A stretch of DNA of 64,000 nucleotides from a virus, in the UHGV virus genome UHGV-1558314; one strand, given 5' to 3'. The notes beneath the pieces are model-generated. The model was not told the DNA's origin, did no database searches, and was given only the letters and a program-made list of their open reading frames with translations. Positions 36,132 through 46,822 of this stretch are shown piece after piece (the stretch's first letter is position 1; every line of letters starts with the position of its first letter). Position numbers and translations under genes: made by a program.

Positions 36132-37265
36132 CTACTTGAGCCCATTGATGAATGCTTCAGTTTCAGCATCCATCGTTGCTGCTGCAGGTGCTGCTGCTGG
36201 AGCTGCTGCAGGTGCAGGCTCTGCTGCAGGTGCTGAAGCTGCTGCAAACGGGTCAATAGCTGTCTGAGCTGCTGGTGCAGTAGCAGGCGCAGCTGCCGGA
36301 GCTGCTGCAGGTGCAGGCTGAGTAGTCTGTGCCTGCTGAGCTGCTGACGAATTGATGACAATGTCAGGCCAGATATCCGACACATCCTTGTAGTTAGCAA
36401 GGCGCATCTTAACCTGACGCTTGATGTCATCAGAAGCTTCGTGGTAGCCCCACTCCTTTTCGACATTCGGGTACTCCTTGAGCATGTCGACAATCTGCTG
36501 CATGATTTGCTGCTTGTATGCAGGGTCAGTGTCATACTTCGCCTGGTCAACAAGGCTGCCATCTGCAAGCAGCATCGACGATACGTTGGGCGAAATCGTC
36601 GAAGTCTCGTAGTCACGCATTTCAACGCCATTGACGTCTTTAAGCGTAATCTTCAAGAGAATGTCGTGGCCCTTAACAGGATGGAACATGTCCATAGGCT
36701 GAGCGCCCATTTGGATGTCTTCGTCGGTCGGCTTCATTGAGCTCAGCATTCTTTTATACAATGCAGCAGGGAGTCGATATGGGAGTACTTTCCCAACGTT
36801 CTCAGGGTGCACTGAATCAGCTTTGATTTGCACGAGGCAAGTGTACTGACTCTGCATACTGAACTCTCGCTTTGCAAGCGCTTCCTGCTGAGCATCCTTG
36901 GTATTGATGAGTTCCCAGTAGAACGCCGAAATGGGGCACCAACCGTAGGGTTTCATCAAATTTTCCGGATTTTCAGGATGCGGATTAGGCGAGCTCGGCG
37001 AATTGTAGCGGAAGCCCTGATTATGGCCAGTTGCAAACCAGTAATAACGAACGATTGAAATCGGTACTGCTGGGTCTGCTAAATTCGGCAATACGCGAAT
37101 AACTGCACGATAAACTTTGTCCTTTGGCGAATCCTGCGGCTTAGGATTGAAGAACTCAGGTCCTGCAGAACGTTCCGGCTTAGCAAAGCTTGCTACATTG
37201 TCCGGCTGGACATCAAAGATTGACAGCGGCTGATTACCGGTCTGTCCATTTTCAATTTGTGACAT
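36132..37265 (-). CDS. single-stranded DNA-binding protein (T4 gp32-like) with Ala/Pro-rich linker
   Basis: RAVIRVLPN and HPENVGKVLPYRL resemble gp32 core segments (AVIRFLPS; APENEGKVFKYRF), recalled from memory. Codon usage is visibly G/C-richer than neighbours. Confidence 0.55.
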   Translation of the reverse strand: MSQIENGQTGNQPLSIFDVQPDNVASFAKPERSAGPEFFNPKPQDSPKDKVYRAVIRVLPNLADPAVPISIVRYYWFATGHNQGFRYNSPSSPNPHPENPENLMKPYGWCPISAFYWELINTKDAQQEALAKREFSMQSQYTCLVQIKADSVHPENVGKVLPYRLPAALYKRMLSSMKPTDEDIQMGAQPMDMFHPVKGHDILLKITLKDVNGVEMRDYETSTISPNVSSMLLADGSLVDQAKYDTDPAYKQQIMQQIVDMLKEYPNVEKEWGYHEASDDIKRQVKMRLANYKDVSDIWPDIVINSSAAQQAQTTQPAPAAAPAAAPATAPAAQTAIDPFAAASAPAAEPAPAAAPAAAPAAATMDAETEAFINGLK

Positions 37266-38553: not shown

Positions 38554-39305
38554 TTCACTTCAGGTTTTGCTTGCTTGGCCAACTCAGCTTCAGCATTGAA
38601 CTCTTTGCCCTCAGCTTTCATTGTTTCAGCATAAGTCTTTTCATCAGTGTAACGTTCTACGTCATCACCAAGCAGTTTTGCAACTTCATCATCTGCTTCA
38701 AACAATGGCTGTGGATTGTCATCATTGTCATCTTTGAGTTGCTCAAATGTGCTGTTATGCTTTTCTGCAATTTTGATGAGGTCAACGATTGAACGAGTTA
38801 CGAGTTCACCATTGATGCCTGACTGTTGTTCAGATTGACCAGAGCCTTGTTGCAATTCTGCTTGAGTTGCTCGAACATTATTATTGAGTGATGCAAGTAC
38901 ATTGGGAAGAGTTCGACAATATGATATATACTGCTGAACCAACGACATTGCATCATTCTGCAGTTTGATGAGAAATGCAAACTCACCCATGCCTCCGCCT
39001 TGTGCATCAATGCGCTCGAATACTGAATCAAGTGCATGCATTGCATAGAACACTTGTTTGCAAAGTAAATTGATGTTTGTCTTCTCCATCTCGATTGATG
39101 CATCGATAAACGGTGACTTAACATCTGCTGCTATGCACAATTTGCGAACTTCGTCAACATATTTTGAACACTTGTCAAGTGTCTTGTCAAGTTTGCTTCG
39201 GTCAAACTGCTTGTAAACTTCTAATGCATCGCTTACTTCTGCAGCATCCAATATTGCATTTGCTGCAGCCAATTCTGATTCTCTGCTCATCTCAAAATGG
39301 TCCAA
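38550..39305 (-). CDS. hypothetical protein (251 aa)
   Basis: ORF track. Confidence 0.45.
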   Translation of the reverse strand: MDHFEMSRESELAAANAILDAAEVSDALEVYKQFDRSKLDKTLDKCSKYVDEVRKLCIAADVKSPFIDASIEMEKTNINLLCKQVFYAMHALDSVFERIDAQGGGMGEFAFLIKLQNDAMSLVQQYISYCRTLPNVLASLNNNVRATQAELQQGSGQSEQQSGINGELVTRSIVDLIKIAEKHNSTFEQLKDDNDDNPQPLFEADDEVAKLLGDDVERYTDEKTYAETMKAEGKEFNAEAELAKQAKPEVK

Positions 39306-39901
39306 GCTTCAATGATTGCTGAAAAATCTTCAAAGGGCATTGTAGTGTAGCCGGAATCACCCCAAGATATACCCCAGCTATTCTTGATGATGAATGAGTC
39401 TTTTGTATAGCCGACAATTGACACTGCATGACCACCAAAATTGCCATCGCCTTTCCAAAAATGCTCAGCATCAATGTCTTTTACGAGCATACCAACAAAG
39501 ACAGGCCCATTTGCTACAACAGCAGATTTGATTTCATCAATTGTGTAGCAACGTCTGTATGCAGTTATTGGCAATTGCTCTGAGCCCTTTGACATTTTGA
39601 TTGGCTGTGCTTTGAGTAGCTTAAAGACGTCACGTGGAATCATGCCCTCTTGAGGCTTATTTGAACGACGCTCATACAATGCTTTGATGTCAAGCTTGCC
39701 TTGCATAGACAGCACAGAAGACCACCAGTCAATCATTGTTGCTGCTGTGTAAGCTGCACACATTGATGTACTGCCTTGGTCTTCTACTTGAAGCTGAGCA
39801 AGCTTATATGCAAGTGGCAAGTCGGTTTTTGCGTCAAAGCGCAAGTCTCTGTCATCTTGTGGTGACTGGATGTAGCCCAGTCCATATGTCATCTGTTTCA
39901 T
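39287..39901 (-). CDS. papain-like (C1 family) cysteine peptidase
   Basis: Catalytic motifs in order: QGSTSMCAAYTAA (Gln...Cys), GGHAVSIVGY (His), KNSWGISWGDSGY (Asn-Ser-Trp). Confidence 0.6.
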   Translation of the reverse strand: MKQMTYGLGYIQSPQDDRDLRFDAKTDLPLAYKLAQLQVEDQGSTSMCAAYTAATMIDWWSSVLSMQGKLDIKALYERRSNKPQEGMIPRDVFKLLKAQPIKMSKGSEQLPITAYRRCYTIDEIKSAVVANGPVFVGMLVKDIDAEHFWKGDGNFGGHAVSIVGYTKDSFIIKNSWGISWGDSGYTTMPFEDFSAIIEAWTILR

Positions 39902-40213: not shown

Positions 40214-40572
40214 TCATTTGGTTGAGGCTCAATTCGCATCACTACACGCACAGAATCTCTATAAGGATAAACTGACGCAACAATCAAATACCAACGTTTG
40301 TCGTCGACTTCGCCATTTGACTTGATGTATGGCGCAGAAGTAGTAATGTATCGAGCATGTTTGAATGTCGTATCTACTCTTGCAGCAAGACAGGTAGAAT
40401 CAGTCGTTTGAGCATGCCACACATCAATTTCTGGTAAATACGTGTTATGAGCATTGCATACACTATCAACAAATTCTCGTGGTTGCAAAGTGACAGTTGA
40501 CACATATATTGGCTTAACTGCAGCGCATGCAATGCATGCAATTGCAATGAACAACAATGTAAATCGTTTCAT
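40210..40572 (-). CDS. small secreted or lipoprotein-like protein
   Basis: N-terminus MKRFTLLFIAIACIACAA is a signal peptide with Cys near the predicted cleavage region. Confidence 0.45.
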   Translation of the reverse strand: MKRFTLLFIAIACIACAAVKPIYVSTVTLQPREFVDSVCNAHNTYLPEIDVWHAQTTDSTCLAARVDTTFKHARYITTSAPYIKSNGEVDDKRWYLIVASVYPYRDSVRVVMRIEPQPNE

Positions 40573-40576
40573 ATTC

Positions 40577-40846
40577 TTAGACGTTTTGTAGTTCTACAAT
40601 ATCATATCGCTTATGCAATTCAGACCAGTCACGAACGTAGCCTGTCATAAAGACATGCAACATGTATGGCTTGCTGTCAACATACTTGACTGCACCTGCA
40701 GCATCTTTGATTTGCTTGGCAGTTAGCCAAACTTCTGCGTTGTTACTTGTGTATACGCAATGATACACAGGCTCTGACAATTCAGTCACTGTGATTTTCT
40801 TGCCATTGCGCAATATGCATCGTACTTGTTTGCCCATTGCTTGCAA
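40577..40846 (-). CDS. small hypothetical protein (paralog of 41180..41476)
   Basis: Shared segments VTELSEPVYHCVY / ITELAQPVFPCFVY and GYVRDWSEL / GYVRGWTEL. Confidence 0.4.
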   Translation of the reverse strand: MQAMGKQVRCILRNGKKITVTELSEPVYHCVYTSNNAEVWLTAKQIKDAAGAVKYVDSKPYMLHVFMTGYVRDWSELHKRYDIVELQNV

Positions 40847-40886
40847 TTTATGATATTGTTAAGATATCTACAAAAAGCAATGCACT

Positions 40887-41183
40887 CTACAAAAAGCAAT
40901 GCACCATAAAACCCAAGAACATAATTATTGCAGGCTGCATGATGCAATACATAAAGAACTGTGCAGCAATCGGCAATTCATTGAACTTGTTGACTGTGTC
41001 ATGATTCTTGAACAATGCCAGTACAAATGATATCCCAATTGCATGCTTAAGCGATAACGCAGTCAATGCGGGCCACACAGGCATCACAAACCACTCCCAG
41101 AAGTTCATAATAATGCAGCCATTCAGAATATAGCCTAACAGCATGAACATAATGCATGCAACAGTTGTCAGAAAGTTTTTCAT
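40887..41183 (-). CDS. small membrane protein (3 TM; holin-like candidate)
   Basis: ORF track; three hydrophobic segments in a 98-aa protein. Confidence 0.4.
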   Translation of the reverse strand: MKNFLTTVACIMFMLLGYILNGCIIMNFWEWFVMPVWPALTALSLKHAIGISFVLALFKNHDTVNKFNELPIAAQFFMYCIMQPAIIMFLGFMVHCFL

Positions 41184-41476
41184 ATACGCTCAAGTTTTAT
41201 GATGTCAGTTCTTAATGATTTGTATACAGCAAATAATTCAGTCCAGCCTCGTACATAACCAACGCCAATTACATGCAATGCATGTGCATCTGGTTTTGTA
41301 TGGCAATGTCTTGCATGAGGCTGCTGTTCAAGTTCTGCTTGTGTAAGATAGACCTTTGATGTGTCATCATACACAAAACATGGAAATACTGGCTGTGCAA
41401 GTTCTGTTATGTCAATGTCTTGACCATTAGATAGCTTTGCAAGATATAATGTATTGGATTGCATATTAGCTTGCAT
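41180..41476 (-). CDS. small hypothetical protein (paralog of 40577..40846)
   Basis: See 40577..40846. Confidence 0.4.
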   Translation of the reverse strand: MQANMQSNTLYLAKLSNGQDIDITELAQPVFPCFVYDDTSKVYLTQAELEQQPHARHCHTKPDAHALHVIGVGYVRGWTELFAVYKSLRTDIIKLERI

Positions 41477-41477
41477 A

Positions 41478-42401
41478 TTACATTGAGATGTTAAGAATTC
41501 GCTTGACTACAGAATCGATATCATTGTTTGCAGCATTGCACAGTTCCATGCGAACATTAGAATCAATGAACAAGTTATGAAACGTTGACGCAGCTTGAAC
41601 AAGATGACACCAGATTGCTCGTCTACACATTGCAAGTTCTCTGTCAGCTTTGCTGCATTGCATGAGATACGAGTTTGCTCTATCACTGTAATATGACTGA
41701 GCATACTTGCATTGACGTTCAGCGTCATTTACAATGTACATGTATGGAGTCTTGACGTCAAAGTAAATTTTGCAATACAATGACTTGTCATCAATTGCAA
41801 AGTCATCAATATTGACAGTCAAATCTGTCATTGCATACGTCAAACCTCTGTCATGCAAATATGCAAACATTGCAGTATAGCATTGATGCAATGTAGCAAT
41901 CAATTCACATTTGTCAGTTGACTGAACAACTTTGTATGCTGCTTTGATTGCCTTTGCATATATGAGCTGCAAACACAGCTCTTTGCGACGCAATGCTTTG
42001 CGTTCAAATTGTCGCTCATATTTGATGTGCTTACGTATGCGTTTGCGTTCTGTAAGCAATTTCGACAAGTCAATACGAATGTATTTTGATACATTTGTAA
42101 CAGCGGTGTCAATACTGTGCCACTGTTCAATGTCGTCAATGTCAAGTTCATGCGCAAGTGAATGTGACACTCTGCCGTACATGTATAAGACTTTGCAGTT
42201 GTCATCGCATAATGCATACATACACCATGATGACAGTTCAATGTCATGCTCAAATGTGGCAAAATCAACTTCTACTGCAATATTTGCGTTTGTGCATATG
42301 CATTTTTGAATGTCAATGTCACTTAAGTACCACTTGAAAAATGAATCGACTTCTGCAGAATGTTGACTTATGATGCGCTTGAACAGCTTGTTCGATTTCA
42401 T
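41478..42401 (-). CDS. hypothetical protein (307 aa)
   Basis: ORF track. Confidence 0.45.
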   Translation of the reverse strand: MKSNKLFKRIISQHSAEVDSFFKWYLSDIDIQKCICTNANIAVEVDFATFEHDIELSSWCMYALCDDNCKVLYMYGRVSHSLAHELDIDDIEQWHSIDTAVTNVSKYIRIDLSKLLTERKRIRKHIKYERQFERKALRRKELCLQLIYAKAIKAAYKVVQSTDKCELIATLHQCYTAMFAYLHDRGLTYAMTDLTVNIDDFAIDDKSLYCKIYFDVKTPYMYIVNDAERQCKYAQSYYSDRANSYLMQCSKADRELAMCRRAIWCHLVQAASTFHNLFIDSNVRMELCNAANNDIDSVVKRILNISM

Positions 42402-42688
42402 GCTCGTATAAGTTTGATGACACAGTGCCTACAAGTAGCAAAAGTACTCAATATTGTTTCTACTTTGACACTGTACTGCACATCAATGACACGATATGTG
42501 CCACACAATGCAGACATTTCTTGACGACGTTCTGCAGGTACATTGACACTGTCTGTCAAATTGATGATTGCACCAATCTGCATAGATGACATGACTGCAA
42601 ATTGTTCTGGACCTACTTCTGCTTTGCGATATGCGACTTGTTTGTTGTTTTCGCAAATACTGAATGCTACTGTATAATCTGGTGTCAT
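42398..42688 (-). CDS. hypothetical protein (96 aa)
   Basis: ORF track; 4-nt overlap. Confidence 0.4.
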   Translation of the reverse strand: MTPDYTVAFSICENNKQVAYRKAEVGPEQFAVMSSMQIGAIINLTDSVNVPAERRQEMSALCGTYRVIDVQYSVKVETILSTFATCRHCVIKLIRA

Positions 42689-42700
42689 GATAGTCGCGTT

Positions 42701-43180
42701 TTATTCATTATCGTCATCATATCCCATGCAATCTTCAAGACTTGCAAAGTCATCATCAAAGTCATCGAATTCAGGCTCTTTATTGCACCATTTGTAAGGT
42801 GGATTGTTGAGCAATTCAAGCTCTATTGCATTTGACTGTGCAGAAATCGGAACATATTCGAATGCTTCGACTGACATATCAAATTTGATGCAATGCAGCC
42901 ACGGAAACATATCAGTGTCCTCATGCACAATGGGCTGACGAACGTAGTCTTTCATTGCAATGAACTTGCTGCTGTTGTCCCAGTCTTCAATAGGAATTTC
43001 AAACTGTGATATGGTCGTATGACAATCGTCAAAGAAATTGCAGGATACGCCTACAATAACGTGCGTGTCTGTACGTTGACGTTCTATTGCAAGAAAGTCG
43101 TGTTTCTTGGAAAGATGAACTTCTCCATGCTTCTCTAAAAAGATTTTAAGAAGCTCTTTGTTAATGTCATTGATATTCAT
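42701..43180 (-). CDS. hypothetical acidic protein (159 aa)
   Basis: ORF track; acidic C-terminus. Confidence 0.4.
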   Translation of the reverse strand: MNINDINKELLKIFLEKHGEVHLSKKHDFLAIERQRTDTHVIVGVSCNFFDDCHTTISQFEIPIEDWDNSSKFIAMKDYVRQPIVHEDTDMFPWLHCIKFDMSVEAFEYVPISAQSNAIELELLNNPPYKWCNKEPEFDDFDDDFASLEDCMGYDDDNE

Positions 43181-43202
43181 TGCTGTAGAGATTTTATGAT
43201 GT

Positions 43203-43514
43203 TTAATACTGAGTTTTTGCAGATATAGCTACTTTAATTGCTGCTTTAATTTGTTCGATTGCATCTTGTGAGAACAATTCTGGCACTGCTAAATAGTGAT
43301 ACCATGATGTTGGCGCTGCCTGCATATCAGTTCGTTTAATTGCGAACCGAAGTTCTTTTGGTGAACCAAGGCAACCCATATATTGGCAGCTTATTAGCTT
43401 AACTTGCACATTGTTAATGCTGCTATGAATAGCAAGATGAGACAGATTTATTCTGTCATAGAATTTTAGATGCTTGAGTTGTTTTTCAATTGCTTTGAAT
43501 GCGTTTGTATTCAT
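43203..43514 (-). CDS. hypothetical protein (103 aa)
   Basis: ORF track; promoter/5' UTR (AAACCTCTACAACA-ATG) near-identical to that of gene 10397..10618. Confidence 0.4.
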   Translation of the reverse strand: MNTNAFKAIEKQLKHLKFYDRINLSHLAIHSSINNVQVKLISCQYMGCLGSPKELRFAIKRTDMQAAPTSWYHYLAVPELFSQDAIEQIKAAIKVAISAKTQY

Positions 43515-43587
43515 TGTTGTAGAGGTTTGTATACTATATTGATATATGATAATTGTACTACAAATTTATCAAATTTGCACTGATTTA

Positions 43588-43696
43588 ATATATAATATGT
43601 CAATAAATTTCACATATAAAGTCTTTTCGCTTATGAAAACTACTCAACTCTGGTTTGAACGCCAGCAGTCAATCGCGGGGGGGCTCTTCGTGACAC
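43588..43696. repeat. left arm of a near-perfect inverted repeat of about 109 bp
   Basis: tatataatatgtcaataaatttcacatataaagtcttttcgcttatgaaaactactcaactctggtttgaacgccagcagtcaatcgcgggggggctcttcgtgacac; its reverse complement occurs at 46611-46721 with one small indel. Confidence 0.85.
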
Positions 43697-43749
43697 AGGC
43701 ATGCGCATATACGTGCGTGACAATGCTGATAACATTGTTAATGGGCTAA
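43633..43749 (+). other. short leader ORF (MKTTQLWFERQQSIAGG...) containing a G7 tract, in the +1 frame relative to downstream gene 43701..44333
   Basis: ATG at 43633; G7 at 43677-43683. The gene A frame is open from 43659 through the G tract, so a -1 shift or one extra G fuses leader and gene. Confidence 0.5.
43677..43683 (+). repeat. homopolymeric G7 tract (candidate slippage site)
   Basis: cgcgggggggctc read directly. Confidence 0.9.
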
Positions 43750-44333
43750 CTTGCTATTTGCACTGTATTGAAACAGGTCGAACACTTCAAAGAGACTTGC
43801 ACACAAGCAATAATGGTGATGGCGTCACATTTTACATAACTGGTGATGACTATAAGCAATTAGTCGGCTCAACAAAAGACGCACAATTTTATCTTATTGA
43901 CACGCCTGATGCTGCAGATATGTCTTGGTCATCTGCAGCATTTACACTTAGATATGGCGCAGATATAGTTAACAACACACTAAATGTCAATATTGAAGCG
44001 TTCAAATCATGCGAAGTAACAATAACTAACAGTGGCAATACATGCAGTTGCACCGCAATGCTTGAATCTGCATTGCCAGTGGCAATTAAACTGTCAACAA
44101 TTTGCAATACATCAGTAGCATCTAATGTCGATGTGTCAGTTAACATAGCTGCAAATAGCTTGACTGCTAATTTTAGAGTTGGCAATAGCTTATCTGCAAA
44201 ATTGACGCATGTCGGCATATGGTCTATTGCTAATGCTTCTTATGTTTCACCAATATATGAGGGTGCTATAATTGTGAAAACACTGAACGACATATTTCAC
44301 GTGTTCATAACAGATAAGACAACACTTGGCTAA
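43701..44333 (+). CDS. cassette gene A (210 aa), candidate variable fibre or receptor-binding protein
   Basis: ORF track; first plus-strand gene after the strand switch; starts 5 nt after the IR. Confidence 0.5.
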   Translation: MRIYVRDNADNIVNGLTCYLHCIETGRTLQRDLHTSNNGDGVTFYITGDDYKQLVGSTKDAQFYLIDTPDAADMSWSSAAFTLRYGADIVNNTLNVNIEAFKSCEVTITNSGNTCSCTAMLESALPVAIKLSTICNTSVASNVDVSVNIAANSLTANFRVGNSLSAKLTHVGIWSIANASYVSPIYEGAIIVKTLNDIFHVFITDKTTLG

Positions 44334-44368: not shown

Positions 44369-44425
44369 ATGAAAACTCCACAATTTTGGTTTGAGCGTCA
44401 ACAAGGGCTAGCGGGGGGGCTCTAA
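44369..44425 (+). other. leader ORF copy B (MKTPQFWFERQQGLAGGL, 18 aa) with G7 tract
   Basis: Diverged at nucleotide level from the IR copy but conserved as peptide. Stop immediately after the G tract, while the gene B frame opens immediately before it. Confidence 0.5.
44413..44419 (+). repeat. homopolymeric G7 tract
   Basis: gcgggggggctc read directly. Confidence 0.9.
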
Positions 44426-44462
44426 ATTAGTCTACCTGCAACTTGTTATTGGCGACGCTTCG

Positions 44463-44891
44463 TTGTACAACTTTGGCACTACTGAAACAATGGCGATACA
44501 AGGTACAATATCGCTTGACAATGTCACAGTTAACATACCAACGTCAGGCTTTCCTATCAAAATGATGGAATGCCGCGGTGGTGAAACTCATGCAATTGGT
44601 GCGTTAATGATGCCAAAAGCTTATGACTACTCAAACTTTGCTGCAAAAATTGGTTTTGGCTGCTATGCAGCAGATGGTCGTGGCACTGGCAACGTTTACA
44701 ACATCAATGTGTATGCCAACATTAACAACACAAGCCCTGGTGGTAATCCCATACTGTTAACTTCTATGGCATGGCAATATCCATTAGGCGTTGGTGATAA
44801 GCTTACATTGCCAATGTCAAATCCATCTGTCAAAGTTAACAATGGAGATATCGTGTCAATCATACTTAAGAATGCAAGGAAAGTCAGCTAA
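44463..44891 (+). CDS. cassette gene B (142 aa; start uncertain)
   Basis: ORF track uses a TTG start; in-frame ATG at 44490. The frame is open upstream to the G7 tract (RGGSKLVYLQLVIGDASLYNFGTTET...). Confidence 0.45.
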   Translation: MYNFGTTETMAIQGTISLDNVTVNIPTSGFPIKMMECRGGETHAIGALMMPKAYDYSNFAAKIGFGCYAADGRGTGNVYNINVYANINNTSPGGNPILLTSMAWQYPLGVGDKLTLPMSNPSVKVNNGDIVSIILKNARKVS

Positions 44892-44975
44892 CTGACAGAT
44901 GCATCACATATAAGCAATGCTCCACTGAGAAATCTCAGTGGAGCATTTTTTGTGCTGTTTGGCAATTTTAGACAT

Positions 44976-45386
44976 CTATATGCTATAGTATGCCCTATTG
45001 ACAAGCAACACATAGTCACCACACAGTAATGCAGCGTACGACATCATGCAATCATCTTGCGGCGCACTGACATCTGCATATCCTTTTGCGTACATAACCA
45101 TGTTGTTGTGCACAAAGTCAACTTTAGCATTTGCATAAATTGCATCAGTGCCACGGTCAACTATAAATGATTCACCGCGTTCAAGCGCATTTGCATTAAT
45201 TGTCACGGTAGATGTACCAGCATTAATGCTGTACAATGTATTTGGCACAGCATTAATGCTGGTACTTGATACCGTCATAAACTTAGCAGCAAATATGCTA
45301 TCAACCAAATCACCAAATTGTGCTGAGGTGGGTTTATCTCCGGTTTCAAAATACGTTTTGAGTACCGAACGTGTTTGAACTGCCAT
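44976..45386 (-). CDS. tail-fibre-like protein (cassette gene D, 136 aa)
   Basis: N-terminal LKTYFETGDKPTSAQFGDLVDSIF resembles a motif I recall from phage tail fibre/collar proteins. Not searched. Confidence 0.45.
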   Translation of the reverse strand: MAVQTRSVLKTYFETGDKPTSAQFGDLVDSIFAAKFMTVSSTSINAVPNTLYSINAGTSTVTINANALERGESFIVDRGTDAIYANAKVDFVHNNMVMYAKGYADVSAPQDDCMMSYAALLCGDYVLLVNRAYYSI

Positions 45387-45404: not shown

Positions 45405-45587
45405 TTATGCAATGTGACATGAAAGCAACACTGCAAACTTTTCATCGAATGCAATGTCACCTACGTTATAACAAGAGATTGAGCCAGATATGTGACCCCC
45501 CCAATTCAATTTGAATGTCATAAAGCTTATGAGTTTGTAAATGTTTGTTTTGTTTATATATTTTGACTGCCCATATGTACATATCAA
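45405..45587 (-). other. small upstream ORF (60 aa) containing a G7 tract, in frame with and 6 codons upstream of gene D
   Basis: ORF track; ...FKLNWGGHISG... spans the G7 tract. Confidence 0.3.
45496..45502 (-). repeat. homopolymeric G7 tract (C7 on plus strand)
   Basis: gtgaccccccccaatt read directly. Confidence 0.9.
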
Positions 45588-45658
45588 AACAACATCTTAG
45601 TTGTTTTGCATCTTGCATCAAAACAACATCTTAGTTGTTTTGCATCTTGCATCAAAAC
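45583..45658. repeat. tandem direct repeat (34-bp unit, 2.2 copies), each unit containing a 9-bp-stem hairpin
   Basis: atcaaaacaacatcttagttgttttgcatcttgc repeated; CAAAACAAC / GTTGTTTTG inverted repeat inside each unit. Confidence 0.8.
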
Positions 45659-45895
45659 TCATAGGCATTGCATTCAAAGATGAAGATTTTACAGCAGACA
45701 TTGCACTTGATAACGCGTCATTTTATGATGGCCAAACTGCATGGCTAACTGGAAAGCTTCTGGCAGCATTGTGTTAAGTATAAAACAGTTACATTGAAAG
45801 CTAACACAACAGTAAACATCGCCATTTAATGCACATCAAAAACTCCACTGAACAATTAAGTTCAGTGGAGTTTTTGATGTGTAGTGTGCAAAATA

Positions 45896-46549
45896 CTACA
45901 ACATATTCCAGTTTGTTATGTCATACATGTTGAAGCTGAACGCTGATGTGATGTATCCAAGAGTAGTCAAGATGTCCACACCAACTACAGGGTCATTTGC
46001 AATAAGCAAAATACAGTTAGTGACAGACGTATCGACCATATTGTCTGCTTGAAAATCATTGTGCATCAACCAGTCAGCAAAGCAGATGTCATAGTACACA
46101 GGATTGCCTGCAAATACTTTATCATTTCCAAATGCTTCTGATGGGTGCGACAATGTAGATGCAAGCAGTTGAATGTCTTCATCTGTGCAAGACGATTTAA
46201 TGTCATCAAGCACAATTGCTACACGCTGCTCATTTGTCTCTGAATCACCTCTATGAATTTCATGAATCCAAGGCAAGCATGCAAGTGCATCACCACATGT
46301 CAAATTGACATTATCAAGTGTCTCGCCTTGACCTGCGTAGCAATATAAAGTGGAGCCAGTGCCATAACGTAGACAGTCATTTATGCTGACATTATCAAGA
46401 TACACTGAACAAATTGACAATGCACCTGCACCAAGCCTGTTTGCAGGAATTGTCAACTTATATGTTGGCACGCCATTTGACTGCACTGTAATAGGCGAGC
46501 CCGCTAATAATTCACCAGTGTCAGCATCATAGCATTCGACTTCTTGCAT
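45896..46549 (-). CDS. cassette gene C (217 aa), candidate variable fibre or receptor-binding protein
   Basis: ORF track; its frame is open upstream through the IR G7 tract (TPAVNRGGALRDTIISGTINKADGSLLEAAYAT-MQEVECYD...). Confidence 0.5.
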   Translation of the reverse strand: MQEVECYDADTGELLAGSPITVQSNGVPTYKLTIPANRLGAGALSICSVYLDNVSINDCLRYGTGSTLYCYAGQGETLDNVNLTCGDALACLPWIHEIHRGDSETNEQRVAIVLDDIKSSCTDEDIQLLASTLSHPSEAFGNDKVFAGNPVYYDICFADWLMHNDFQADNMVDTSVTNCILLIANDPVVGVDILTTLGYITSAFSFNMYDITNWNML

Positions 46550-46610
46550 AGTCGCATATGCAGCTTCAAGTAGTGAACCATCTGCTTTGTTGATAGTGCC
46601 GCTGATAATA

Positions 46611-46721
46611 GTGTCACGAAGAGCCCCCCCGCGATTGACTGCTGGCGTTCAAACCAGAGTTGAGTAGTTTTCATAAGCGAAAAGACTTTTTGTATGTGAA
46701 ATTTATTGACATATTATATAT
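46611..46721. repeat. right arm of the inverted repeat (reverse complement of 43588-43696)
   Basis: Direct comparison of both arms; includes the leader ORF start (ATG at 46674, minus) and a G7 tract. Confidence 0.85.
46624..46630 (-). repeat. homopolymeric G7 tract (C7 on plus strand)
   Basis: gagcccccccgcg read directly. Confidence 0.9.
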
Positions 46722-46734
46722 CAGGCAGCAATAT

Positions 46735-46775
46735 GCACAAAAAAGAAGAGCATCGGTTAAAAACCGATGCTCTTT
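46735..46775 (-). terminator. rho-independent terminator after BACON-like gene
   Basis: Stem GAAGAGCATCGGTT / AACCGATGCTCTTT, followed on the minus strand by TTTTTTGTG. Confidence 0.55.
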
Positions 46776-46822
46776 CAAGTTCTGCTGTGAACTGTTCAAT
46801 AGTGTAATCTTGTTGTACTCGA

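What the first reader, a model, noticed from the sequence alone, without database searches (positions are those of the whole stretch)
46508..46674. Leader ORF C on the right arm: upstream frame reads as plausible protein for 25 codons before the annotated start
Reading the -1 frame from the G7 tract (46624-46630, minus strand) into gene C gives ...GGALRDTIISGTINKADGSLLEAAYAT-MQEVECYD... with no stop. The pre-ATG stretch has ordinary protein-like composition, suggesting the true N-terminus of C is the shifted leader rather than the ATG at 46549.
Basis: seen in the sequence. Interest (0 to 1): 0.7.

Follow-up and report, generated by a model that had tools for sequence, protein, structure and literature searches.

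The report
Poly-G on/off switch in gut phage
Gene C of this uncultivated human-gut phage really begins at the upstream "leader" start codon, but a run of seven G's after 15 codons puts this copy one G out of frame. It is one of several slippage-prone poly-G switches that turn a small family of phage genes on and off.

Summary
A leader ATG lies at 46674, a G7 tract at 46630-46624, and 25 stop-free codons in gene C's frame precede the called ATG at 46549.

The window holds only four G7 tracts (0.07 expected). All four lie in a 3-kb cassette (43.6-46.7 kb), each just after a short leader.

Across 26 related gut-metagenome contigs, C's tract is G6 in 9, G7 in 16 and G8 in 1. Eleven contigs of one strain are identical over 3.36 kb except at four poly-G tracts.

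- At G8 the leader fuses in frame to give a 259-aa protein, MKTTQLWFERQQSIAGGALRDT…. That allele exists (P0016/L016).
- The 75 nt before 46549 evolve as coding sequence in C's frame. They are conserved in a 26%-identical homologue and hold a predicted first β-strand.
- No start codon exists in that frame upstream of 46549.

C's real N-terminus is therefore the leader. The window's allele (G7) is OFF.

The best explanation is a contingency locus: DNA slippage changes the G count. A −1 ribosomal or RNA-polymerase slip on G7 remains a possible contributor.

The kind is known (Campylobacter Fletchervirus phages, Neisseria opa genes). A shared promoter-leader-polyG module in front of unrelated genes in a gut phage is a new variant. 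The proteins' function is unknown.

The parts
46689..46721 (-). Promoter-like AT-rich segment of unit C (TATATAATATGTCAATAAATTTCACATACAAA). It is the outer part of the right inverted-repeat arm.
   Evidence: I3, 97% complementary to 43588-43620. One search shows it is shared with unit A, with a related ATTTTCACA motif in units F and L001. Promoter function is inferred, not shown.
46746..46774 (-). Terminator-like hairpin plus T-run ending the upstream BACON-domain gene, so unit C is its own transcription unit.
46611..46721 (-). Right arm of the inverted repeat: promoter, leader, G7 and 13 nt.
   Evidence: I1/I3. The junction of the natural cassette inversion lies inside it.
46631..46674 (-). 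Leader coding sequence: ATG at 46674 plus codons for MKTTQLWFERQQSI and the first two bases of Ala15.
   Evidence: The nucleotides are identical in all 19 C alleles then in hand (no later locus contradicted this). The peptide core WFERQQ is kept in unit B through 4 synonymous changes.
46624..46630 (-). Poly-G tract, G7 in this window (OFF). G8 is in frame with the leader ATG. G6 is in frame only with a TTG at 46652.
   Evidence: G6 in 9, G7 in 16, G8 in 1 of 26 contigs.
46504..46674 (-). The 56-aa ORF read from the leader ATG in the G7 state. Its part after the tract is not evolving as coding sequence.
   Evidence: in this frame 10 of 11 variable codons change the amino acid.
46550..46624 (-). 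The 25 codons (ALRDTIISGTINKADGSLLEAAYAT) of gene C's frame upstream of the called ATG. These are real coding sequence.
   Evidence: 8 of 12 variable sites at third positions; β-strand at residues 22-30 of the 259-aa form, pLDDT about 83.
45896..46549 (-). Gene C as called from the internal ATG (217 aa, identical to P0003). This is the body of the 259-aa protein.
45832..45881 (.). Perfect 22-bp hairpin just after the stop of C, probably a terminator.
   Evidence: I6.
43588..43696 (+). Left arm of the inverted repeat: promoter-like segment, leader ATG at 43633 and G7 at 43677-43683 of unit A.
43683..44333 (+). Body of gene A. ALRDTG precedes the called ATG at 43701. The product is 233 aa from the leader at G8.
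   Evidence: L016 carries G8 and a called 233-aa gene.
44369..44425 (+). Unit B leader ORF (MKTPQFWFERQQGLAGGL*) with G7 at 44413-44419.
44421..44891 (+). Body of gene B, open from the tract in the +1 frame. It is ON at G6 or G9 in this context. It is ON at G7 behind a short leader in the IMG/VR relative.
44916..44947 (.). Bidirectional terminator-like hairpin between the convergent genes B and D.
45405..45521 (-). Unit D short upstream ORF (MTFKLNWGG...) with G7 at 45502-45496. It never fuses to gene D.
   Evidence: The tract is G5-G10 in relatives.
44976..45386 (-). Gene D (136 aa), with weak similarity to structural proteins of Flavobacterium myophages.

Best explanation
Unit C is a contingency (phase-variable) locus of an uncultivated, roughly 175-kb human-gut phage.

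Inferred from the anatomy: transcription starts at its own promoter-like element and translation starts at the leader ATG (46674).

Shown:
- After 15 codons comes a slippage-prone poly-G tract.
- With eight G's the reading frame runs on into gene C and gives a 259-aa protein. It consists of a conserved 17-22-aa N-terminal peptide (MKTTQLWFERQQSIAGG-ALRDT) followed by a predicted β-sandwich and a C-terminal domain.
- With seven G's, as in this window, the leader ends as a 56-aa out-of-frame product and the full-length protein is not encoded. This is the OFF state.
- The tract length differs between otherwise identical genomes.
- The ON allele exists in nature.
- The stretch upstream of 46549 is coding.

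Inferred:
- Gain or loss of a G during phage DNA replication (slipped-strand mispairing) flips the gene between states.
- The same module sits in front of genes A and B here and in front of further, unrelated genes in relatives. A phage population could therefore carry many combinations of ON and OFF genes.
- The switching is frequent and reversible.
- The proteins are accessory virion or host-interaction proteins.
For: **The tracts are not chance.** There are four G7 tracts against 0.07 expected, all within 3 kb. Only one other G/C run of 5 or more occurs in the window.

**Hypermutability.**
- Eleven contigs of one strain, aligned over 3,363 columns, show 0 substitutions. The only 4 variable columns are the four poly-G tracts.
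- These contigs come from replicate extractions in the Costea 2017 study (PRJEB14847).
- In them C=G6 goes with E=G11 in 5 of 5 and C=G7 with E=G10 in 5 of 6. That is haplotype structure, not random assembly noise.
- A G5 run inside gene E is invariant in all 11.
- Census over all contigs: C is G6 in 9, G7 in 16, G8 in 1. A is G7 in 5, G8 in 1. F is G6 in 2, G7 in 9, G8 in 1. E ranges G7-G11. D ranges G5-G10.

**Frame logic.** From the leader ATG, C gives 19 aa at G6, 56 aa at G7 and 259 aa at G8 in every contig. A gives 38 aa at G7 and 233 aa at G8.

**Natural ON alleles.** P0016 (MKTTQLWFERQQSIAGGALRDTIISG...) sits in L016, where A is also G8.

**The pre-ATG stretch is coding.**
- Eight of 12 variable sites are at third codon positions (binomial p about 0.02), like the body at 59:23:19.
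- No ATG/GTG/TTG lies in that frame upstream of 46549.
- The BLASTP alignment with the L023 homologue starts at the first residue after the tract.
- The AlphaFold model places β-strand 1 at residues 22-30, before Met43.

**The leader peptide is conserved as a peptide.** Unit B keeps WFERQQ through 4 synonymous changes. L023 has MNTTRMWFERQQSIAGG.

**Precedent.** Phage poly-G switches are documented for Campylobacter Fletchervirus (Sorensen 2021, cited in PMC11959909). Contingency loci are reported in T2/T4 (bioRxiv 10.1101/2025.10.21.683753).
Against: - All length data come from assembled consensus sequences. No reads were available, so within-population heterogeneity and switching rates were not measured.
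- Many contigs are replicates of a few stool specimens, so the number of independent lineages is small (about 10 for C).
- The ON consensus state is rare: 1 of 26 for C, and one contig each for A and F.
- The modal length of nearly all long-leader units is G7, exactly one G short of ON.
- Unit B's tract is G7 in all 11 contigs.
- Both patterns fit a fixed 'G7 plus -1 slippage' design as well as, or better than, a free random walk.
- G7 is short for a highly mutable tract.
- Unit D's tract sits in a non-fusing upstream ORF, so 'in-ORF switch' does not describe every tract.
- No function is known for any of the proteins.
Confidence: 0.68

Rival explanations
1. Programmed recoding on a fixed G7. 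The ribosome slips -1 on the heptamer G GGG GGG, or RNA polymerase adds one G to the transcript. A set fraction of leader translation then continues into C, and G7 is the designed state rather than an OFF state. This could also act on top of DNA-level switching, as leaky expression in the OFF state.
For: - In the leader frame the codons are GCG GGG GGG, so the tract is a phase-correct X XXY YYZ slippery heptamer.
- The -1 frame is the productive one for A and C here, and for F, the L001 unit and the L016-type B in relatives.
- G7 is the modal length of every long-leader unit, and B is G7 in 11 of 11 contigs.
- The leader peptide and its nucleotides are unusually conserved.
Against: - Tract length varies at the DNA level (G6/G7/G8) in otherwise identical genomes.
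- Short-leader units carry G7-G11.
- Window unit B needs +1/-2, not -1.
- No stimulatory structure follows the tract. The fold of 46520-46700 has z = 0.28, with 123 of 200 shuffles folding as well.
- No Rfam frameshift element lies at the tract. The only frameshift-family match (DnaX, 18 bits against a 35-bit threshold, E = 0.88) lies upstream at 46720-46778 on the other strand.
- A -1 slip on G GGG GGG and RNA-polymerase slippage on G7 are not established as efficient (my own knowledge).
Confidence: 0.2
2. Gene C starts at the ATG at 46549 as called. The leader is an independent short upstream ORF (regulatory or meaningless), and the open pre-ATG frame is chance.
For: - Gene callers start 217-aa products at MQEVECYD in most contigs.
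- The distant homologue P0018 is also called from the equivalent Met.
- A 25-codon open stretch has about a 20% chance probability.
Against: - The codon-position pattern upstream of the ATG matches coding sequence.
- Protein-level similarity with L023 begins right after the tract.
- Predicted β-strand 1 lies upstream of Met43.
- The in-frame G8 allele exists.
- In the G7 state the leader ORF runs across the 46549 ATG in another frame.
- In gene A the corresponding internal Met is Val (GTG) in P0027, L002 and L004.
Confidence: 0.07
3. The tract-length differences are sequencing or assembly artefacts at homopolymers, and the real genomes all carry one length.
For: - Only assemblies were examined.
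- Longer tracts (G9-G11) are error-prone on short-read platforms.
- Contigs often break in this cassette.
Against: - G6 versus G7 is well within short-read accuracy (my own knowledge).
- States are correlated between tracts 2.4 kb apart.
- Control G5 and other homopolymers never vary.
- Differences recur across different studies and assemblers.
- Each length gives the predicted ORF pattern.
Confidence: 0.05

Closest known systems
Hypermutable poly-G tracts in receptor-binding protein genes of Campylobacter Fletchervirus phages (Sorensen et al. 2021, Cell Rep 35:109214; paper not held, known through PMC11959909 and PMC12823448)
   Same: Phage-encoded poly-G tracts inside the 5' part of genes in or near the structural module. 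Tract-length changes switch full-length protein ON and OFF. Several tracts occur per genome, which gives population heterogeneity.
   Different: - There is no sequence relationship (no DNA or protein match in the phage collections or PHROGs).
- The host lineage is different, probably Bacteroidota, judged from BACON domains and distant helicase relatives.
- Here the tracts follow a shared, portable promoter-leader module placed in front of unrelated small genes.
- A receptor-binding function is not shown.
Neisseria opa gene family: CTCTT repeats in the leader-peptide coding region of about 11 separately transcribed paralogues (own knowledge; background in PMC3745409)
   Same: A multi-gene family with a conserved leader-coding region. 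A slippage-prone repeat lies between the start codon and the mature part. Each copy switches independently, so expression is combinatorial.
   Different: The opa system is bacterial, uses a pentamer repeat rather than a homopolymer, has a signal-peptide leader and has homologous bodies. Here the leader is hydrophilic and not a signal peptide, and the bodies are unrelated in sequence.
Contingency loci (A/T homopolymers) in coliphages T2/T4, e.g. agt and rIIA (Gomez, Barrick & Waters, bioRxiv 10.1101/2025.10.21.683753)
   Same: Homopolymer slippage during phage replication creates reversible frameshift variants used as bet-hedging.
   Different: Those are scattered A-runs inside ordinary genes. 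Here G-runs are otherwise almost absent from the genome and are concentrated in a dedicated cassette behind a conserved leader.
Programmed -1 ribosomal frameshift sites (dnaX; phage tail-assembly chaperone G/GT)
   Same: A phase-correct X XXY YYZ heptamer (G GGG GGG), with the -1 frame encoding the long product.
   Different: The heptamer length is not conserved. No downstream stimulator is present. There is no family homology.
Invertible host-range segments (Mu Gin, P1 Cin; cited in PMC12823448)
   Same: An inverted-repeat-flanked cassette of small genes beside structural genes. Both orientations occur in nature.
   Different: No recombinase was found within about 10 kb. Every gene keeps its own promoter and leader after inversion, so inversion does not choose which gene is expressed.

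Membership tests
Simple-sequence-repeat contingency locus (translational phase variation) | Homopolymer or short repeat inside the 5' part of an ORF | tested here: met
   G7 at 46630-46624, 15 codons after the ATG at 46674.
Simple-sequence-repeat contingency locus (translational phase variation) | Repeat number varies among closely related genomes far above the background mutation level | tested here: met
   0 substitutions and 4 indel columns, all poly-G, in 3.36 kb across 11 contigs. C is G6 in 9, G7 in 16 and G8 in 1. Based on assemblies only.
Simple-sequence-repeat contingency locus (translational phase variation) | Length changes move the downstream ORF in and out of frame, and an in-frame allele exists | tested here: met
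   19/56/259 aa at G6/G7/G8. G8 allele P0016 in L016.
Simple-sequence-repeat contingency locus (translational phase variation) | High-frequency, reversible switching within a clonal population, with a phenotype | not testable with these tools
   Needs reads or a cultured phage.
Fletchervirus-type poly-G receptor-binding protein switch | Homology to Fletchervirus receptor-binding proteins | tested here: not met
   No match in the phage collection or PHROGs. Only 3 homologues in 1.84 billion representatives.
Fletchervirus-type poly-G receptor-binding protein switch | The switched gene encodes a receptor-binding or virion protein | tested here: inconclusive
   The cassette adjoins BACON-domain genes and the neck/baseplate module. 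Gene D weakly matches 'structural protein' of Flavobacterium phages. The C model has only a generic β-sandwich and no significant fold match.
Programmed -1 ribosomal frameshift site | X XXY YYZ slippery heptamer in the zero frame, with a productive -1 frame | tested here: met
   GCG GGG GGG, and the -1 frame continues into C.
Programmed -1 ribosomal frameshift site | Stimulatory downstream RNA structure | tested here: not met
   Fold z-score 0.28. No Rfam frameshift element at the tract; the one sub-threshold DnaX match (18 bits, E = 0.88) lies at 46720-46778 on the other strand.
Programmed -1 ribosomal frameshift site | Slippery sequence conserved in relatives | tested here: not met
   G6/G7/G8 polymorphism. 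G5 in L023.
Site-specific invertible segment (Gin/Cin/shufflon type) | Inverted repeats flank the segment and both orientations occur | tested here: met
   109-nt inverted repeat at 97%. L039/L040 join the left flank to gene C.
Site-specific invertible segment (Gin/Cin/shufflon type) | Adjacent invertase/recombinase gene | tested here: not met
   No recombinase domain in the ORFs scanned from 36 to 56 kb.
Site-specific invertible segment (Gin/Cin/shufflon type) | Inversion decides which coding segment is expressed | tested here: not met
   The promoter and leader lie inside the repeat, so each gene keeps them in either orientation.

The most novel reading that the evidence does not exclude
A human-gut phage carries an opa-like, combinatorial phase-variation system. 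A portable promoter-leader-polyG module is placed in front of at least 7 unrelated small genes (A, B, C, E, F, the L001 unit and a lipoprotein-like gene in relatives).

The conserved leader peptide (M-K/N-T-x-x-x-WFERQQ-x-x-A-G-G) would serve as a common docking or virion-targeting tag. Tract slippage would then decide which accessory proteins each virion carries.

The prevalent 'one-G-short' G7 state would be read through at low level by -1 slippage. Expression would then be graded: off, leaky or on.
Probability: 0.25. Interest if true: 0.8.

Novelty: new variant of a known kind. Interest (0 to 1): 0.6.

Why it matters
- **Rarity.** Phage-encoded phase variation was called "an exceptional case" for Campylobacter phages in a 2025 review (PMC11959909). 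It was only recently proposed for T-even phages.
- **What is new here.** An abundant type of uncultivated human-gut phage appears to devote a whole cassette to it, with a reusable switch module. That would explain how one phage strain keeps several virion or host-interaction phenotypes in a single gut.
- **Practical consequence.** Gene callers mis-annotate these genes, giving 217-, 251- or 259-aa versions of one protein, and assemblies break or invert at this spot.
- **Testability.** It gives a concrete hypothesis for public read data.

Tried and rejected
**DNA and family searches**
- DNA search of the cassette against 50,697 phage records found no match.
- Pfam and PHROG scans of A, B, C and D gave no meaningful family.
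- Searching 1.84 billion representatives with the 259-aa C protein gave only P0002 plus two distant relatives.

**Searches for the leader elsewhere**
- A query of three concatenated leader variants retrieved only the two F-unit products. The leader is therefore confined to this phage lineage, or ON forms are hidden inside clusters.
- The leader pattern scanned in bacterial genomes gave 10 hits. All were chance matches with no G tract.
- A metagenome scan gave only 4 contigs, and two IMG/VR scans found only one contig.

**RNA and structure**
- Rfam found only sub-threshold hairpin noise.
- The RNA fold of the leader region was not better than shuffles. A local pairing of the 5' UTR (CUUUUCGC) with the G tract is absent from unit B, so I did not pursue it.
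- The structure of C had mean pLDDT 56.5, with only residues 21-92 usable. The PDB fold search had no hit below E = 0.001 and returned generic Ig-like folds.
- The structure of A had pLDDT 36.6 and was unusable, so no fold search was run.
- The upstream ORF of unit D shows no coding signal.

**Other leads**
- The exact look-up of the window's own C protein (P0003) found nothing on record.
- The leader resembles the T4 capsid-targeting sequence (MKTYQEFIAE). This is recalled from memory and could not be tested, so I keep it only as a lead.
- A site-specific inversion switch was rejected. No recombinase was found, and the promoters lie inside the repeats.

Full report
**1. What is in the sequence**

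On the minus strand an ATG at 46674 opens a short leader, MKTTQLWFERQQSIAGG. Its last codons are formed by a run of seven G's at 46630-46624. In the leader frame the ORF continues for 56 aa and stops at 46504.

One base back, in the -1 frame, the sequence from 46624 reads ALRDTIISGTINKADGSLLEAAYAT. It then reaches the ATG at 46549, from which gene C (217 aa, to 45896) is normally called. That ATG is the first ATG/GTG/TTG in its frame after the preceding stop.

An open run of 25 codons would occur by chance about one time in five, so the case rests on other evidence.

**2. The tract is one of a set**

The 64-kb window contains exactly four G7 tracts against 0.07 expected. It has only one other G or C run of five or more. 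All four tracts lie between 43677 and 46630.

| Unit | Strand | Leader ATG | G7 tract | Body | State |
|---|---|---|---|---|---|
| A | + | 43633 | 43677-83 | to 44333 | same leader as C; body in the -1 frame |
| B | + | 44369 (variant MKTPQFWFERQQGLAGG) | 44413-19 | to 44891 | body in the +1 frame |
| C | - | 46674 | 46630-24 | to 45896 | the finding; body in the -1 frame |
| D | - | 45521 (short leader MTFKLNWGG) | 45502-496 | gene D, 45386-44976 | the leader ORF never fuses to D |

- A and C face each other. They share a 109-nt inverted repeat, 97% identical, that comprises a promoter-like AT-rich element, the leader, the tract and 13 further bases.
- Terminator-like hairpins separate C from the upstream BACON-domain gene (46774-46746). 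Another lies between B and D (44916-44947), and one follows C (45832-45881).
- The bodies of A, B, C and D are unrelated in sequence.
- The cassette lies between a replication module and a structural module.
  - Replication side: helicases and a gp32-like protein.
  - Structural side: three BACON-domain proteins including one of 1442 aa, a neck or head-closure protein and a baseplate wedge.

**3. Relatives and tract lengths**

- The element is a roughly 175-kb phage known only from human-gut metagenomes.
- It has no DNA match among deposited phages.
- Its helicase is only about 29% identical to those of Chryseobacterium, Tenacibaculum and Sphingomonas jumbo phages.

I collected 30 related stretches and counted the tracts.

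| Unit | Tract lengths observed |
|---|---|
| C | G6 in 9, G7 in 16, G8 in 1 (26 contigs) |
| A | G7 in 5, G8 in 1, plus one interrupted tract |
| F (relatives only) | G6 in 2, G7 in 9, G8 in 1 |
| E (relatives only) | G7 to G11 |
| D | G5 to G10 |
| B | G7 in all 11 |

The sharpest test is. Eleven contigs of one strain were aligned over 3,363 columns. They show no substitution at all, and the only four variable columns are the four poly-G tracts. A G5 run inside gene E never varies.

Those contigs come from study PRJEB14847 (Costea et al. 2017). From my own knowledge, that study split a few stool specimens over many extraction protocols. They are therefore replicate views of few populations, not independent lineages. 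Even so, the states are linked across 2.4 kb: C=G6 goes with E=G11 in 5 of 5 and C=G7 with E=G10 in 5 of 6. Random homopolymer errors would not produce that linkage.

**4. Where protein C starts**

- From the leader ATG the ORF is 19 aa at G6, 56 aa at G7 and 259 aa at G8 in every contig.
- The G8 allele exists. Protein P0016 begins MKTTQLWFERQQSIAGGALRDTIISGTINK... and is encoded in L016, where unit A is also G8 and is called as 233 aa.
- Among seven distinct C alleles, 12 sites vary in the 75 nt upstream of 46549. Eight of them are third positions of C's frame (p about 0.02). The ratio in the gene body is 59:23:19.
- In the leader (G7) frame, 10 of 11 variable codons would change the amino acid.
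- A homologue only 26% identical (L023) aligns from the very first residue after the tract. It has its own version of the leader, MNTTRMWFERQQSIAGG.
- The structure model is poor overall (pLDDT 56.5). It is fairly confident for an N-terminal β-sandwich (residues 21-92), whose first strand (22-30) lies before Met43, the called start. The leader itself is predicted to be disordered.

Together these results show that the coding region of C extends up to the tract. No start codon exists in that frame, so translation must enter from the leader.

**5. Mechanism**

The simplest account is a contingency locus. Slipped-strand mispairing during replication changes the G number. G8 is ON and G7, as in this window, is OFF.

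The rival that cannot be dismissed is recoding.
- For recoding: in the leader frame the tract is a phase-correct slippery heptamer (G GGG GGG). The -1 frame is productive for nearly all long-leader units. G7 is the modal length everywhere, and B never varies.
- Against recoding as the main mechanism: the DNA-level polymorphism itself, the absence of a downstream stimulatory structure (z = 0.28) and of any Rfam element, and unit B in this window, which needs +1/-2.
- I put the DNA switch at about 0.68. Slippage as the primary mechanism is at about 0.2, and it could also act as leakiness on top of the switch.
- At G6 a TTG at 46652 comes into frame, and gene callers then report a 251-aa product. 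Whether that start is used is unknown.

**6. The leader**

- Its nucleotides are identical in every C allele that was compared.
- They are also identical between A, C and the L001 unit.
- Unit B keeps WFERQQ through four synonymous changes, so the peptide itself is under selection.
- It is hydrophilic and is not a signal peptide.
- Short-leader units share only ...N-W-G-G.
- The identical modules suggest duplication or gene conversion.
- They also act as recombination substrates. Two assemblies from different studies (L039, L040) join the left flank through the repeat directly to gene C. The cassette is therefore inverted in them relative to the window.
- Each gene keeps its promoter and leader after inversion, and no recombinase lies nearby. 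I read the inversion as a by-product of recombination, not a switch.

**7. Function**

Function is unknown. No family, fold or annotated homologue was found for A, B or C. Gene D weakly resembles structural proteins of Flavobacterium myophages.

The position beside BACON-domain and tail genes, and the analogy with Fletchervirus, make accessory virion or host-recognition proteins the most likely role. This is inference only.

**8. Comparison and novelty**

- Poly-G phase variation in phages is documented for Campylobacter Fletchervirus and is described as exceptional.
- Homopolymer contingency loci were recently reported in T2 and T4.
- The architecture here is closest in logic to the Neisseria opa family: a conserved leader, then a repeat, then variable bodies, in many independently switching copies.
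- My literature searches found no description of such a system in gut or Bacteroidota-type phages.
- I therefore rate it a new variant of a known kind, with interest 0.6.

Noticed in passing
window 43588-43696 / 46611-46721; loci L039 and L040: The whole cassette occurs in both orientations in nature. L039 (which is L005) and L040 join the left flank (window 40316-43696) through the shared promoter/leader repeat directly to gene C. Many long contigs also end inside the cassette.
   Followed up: partly
window 45496-45521 (unit D): The fourth G7 tract sits in a short upstream ORF (MTFKLNWGG...) that is closed in all three frames before gene D. Its length ranges from G5 to G10 in relatives, and no coding signal follows it. 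Its role is unexplained.
   Followed up: partly
window 45583-45658: A perfect 34-nt tandem repeat (2.2 copies) lies upstream of unit D. Each unit contains the palindrome AAAACAAC...GTTGTTTT, and relatives such as L003 carry more copies. It may be an operator or regulatory site.
   Followed up: no
window 41602-42377: A 775-nt stretch inside ORF 41478-42401 is absent from relatives L002, L039 and L043, which are otherwise 93-96% identical on both sides. It is an insertion or deletion of unknown content.
   Followed up: no
L002 minus strand 11449-11442 (IMG/VR contig IMGVR_UViG_3300045988_152288): A lipoprotein-like ORF (MIKKMICIAVCAWMCASCEKNDGGG...) carries a G8 tract right after the lipobox cysteine and is in frame. 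This is another candidate phase-variable gene. It has no counterpart in the window.
   Followed up: no
L008 5722-6482 and L021 (unit F); L024-L027: Unit F is a paralogue of C split into a leader-fused 108-aa ORF and an overlapping 164-aa ORF. Homologues of both parts (P0017 and a 73-aa ORF) lie next to an IS1595 transposase on short contigs from other samples.
   Followed up: partly
window 44369-44419 compared with L002 9650-9680 and L016: Gene B has three different upstream contexts in relatives: the long leader, the long leader plus one T, and a short leader MNITMNWGG. All three keep exactly G7. Only the short-leader version is in frame.
   Followed up: partly
window 39287-39901 and 36132-37265: A papain-family cysteine protease domain (PF00112, E = 1.4e-10) and a gp32-like single-strand DNA-binding protein lie a few kb left of the cassette. 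The latter hints at a distant T4-like replication module.
   Followed up: no
L023 1-8 (Logan SRR14089581): In the distant relative, the contig ends in a G8-or-longer tract preceded by another short leader (MIISKCNWGG) on the opposite strand. That relative's C-like unit has only G5, two short of in frame.
   Followed up: no
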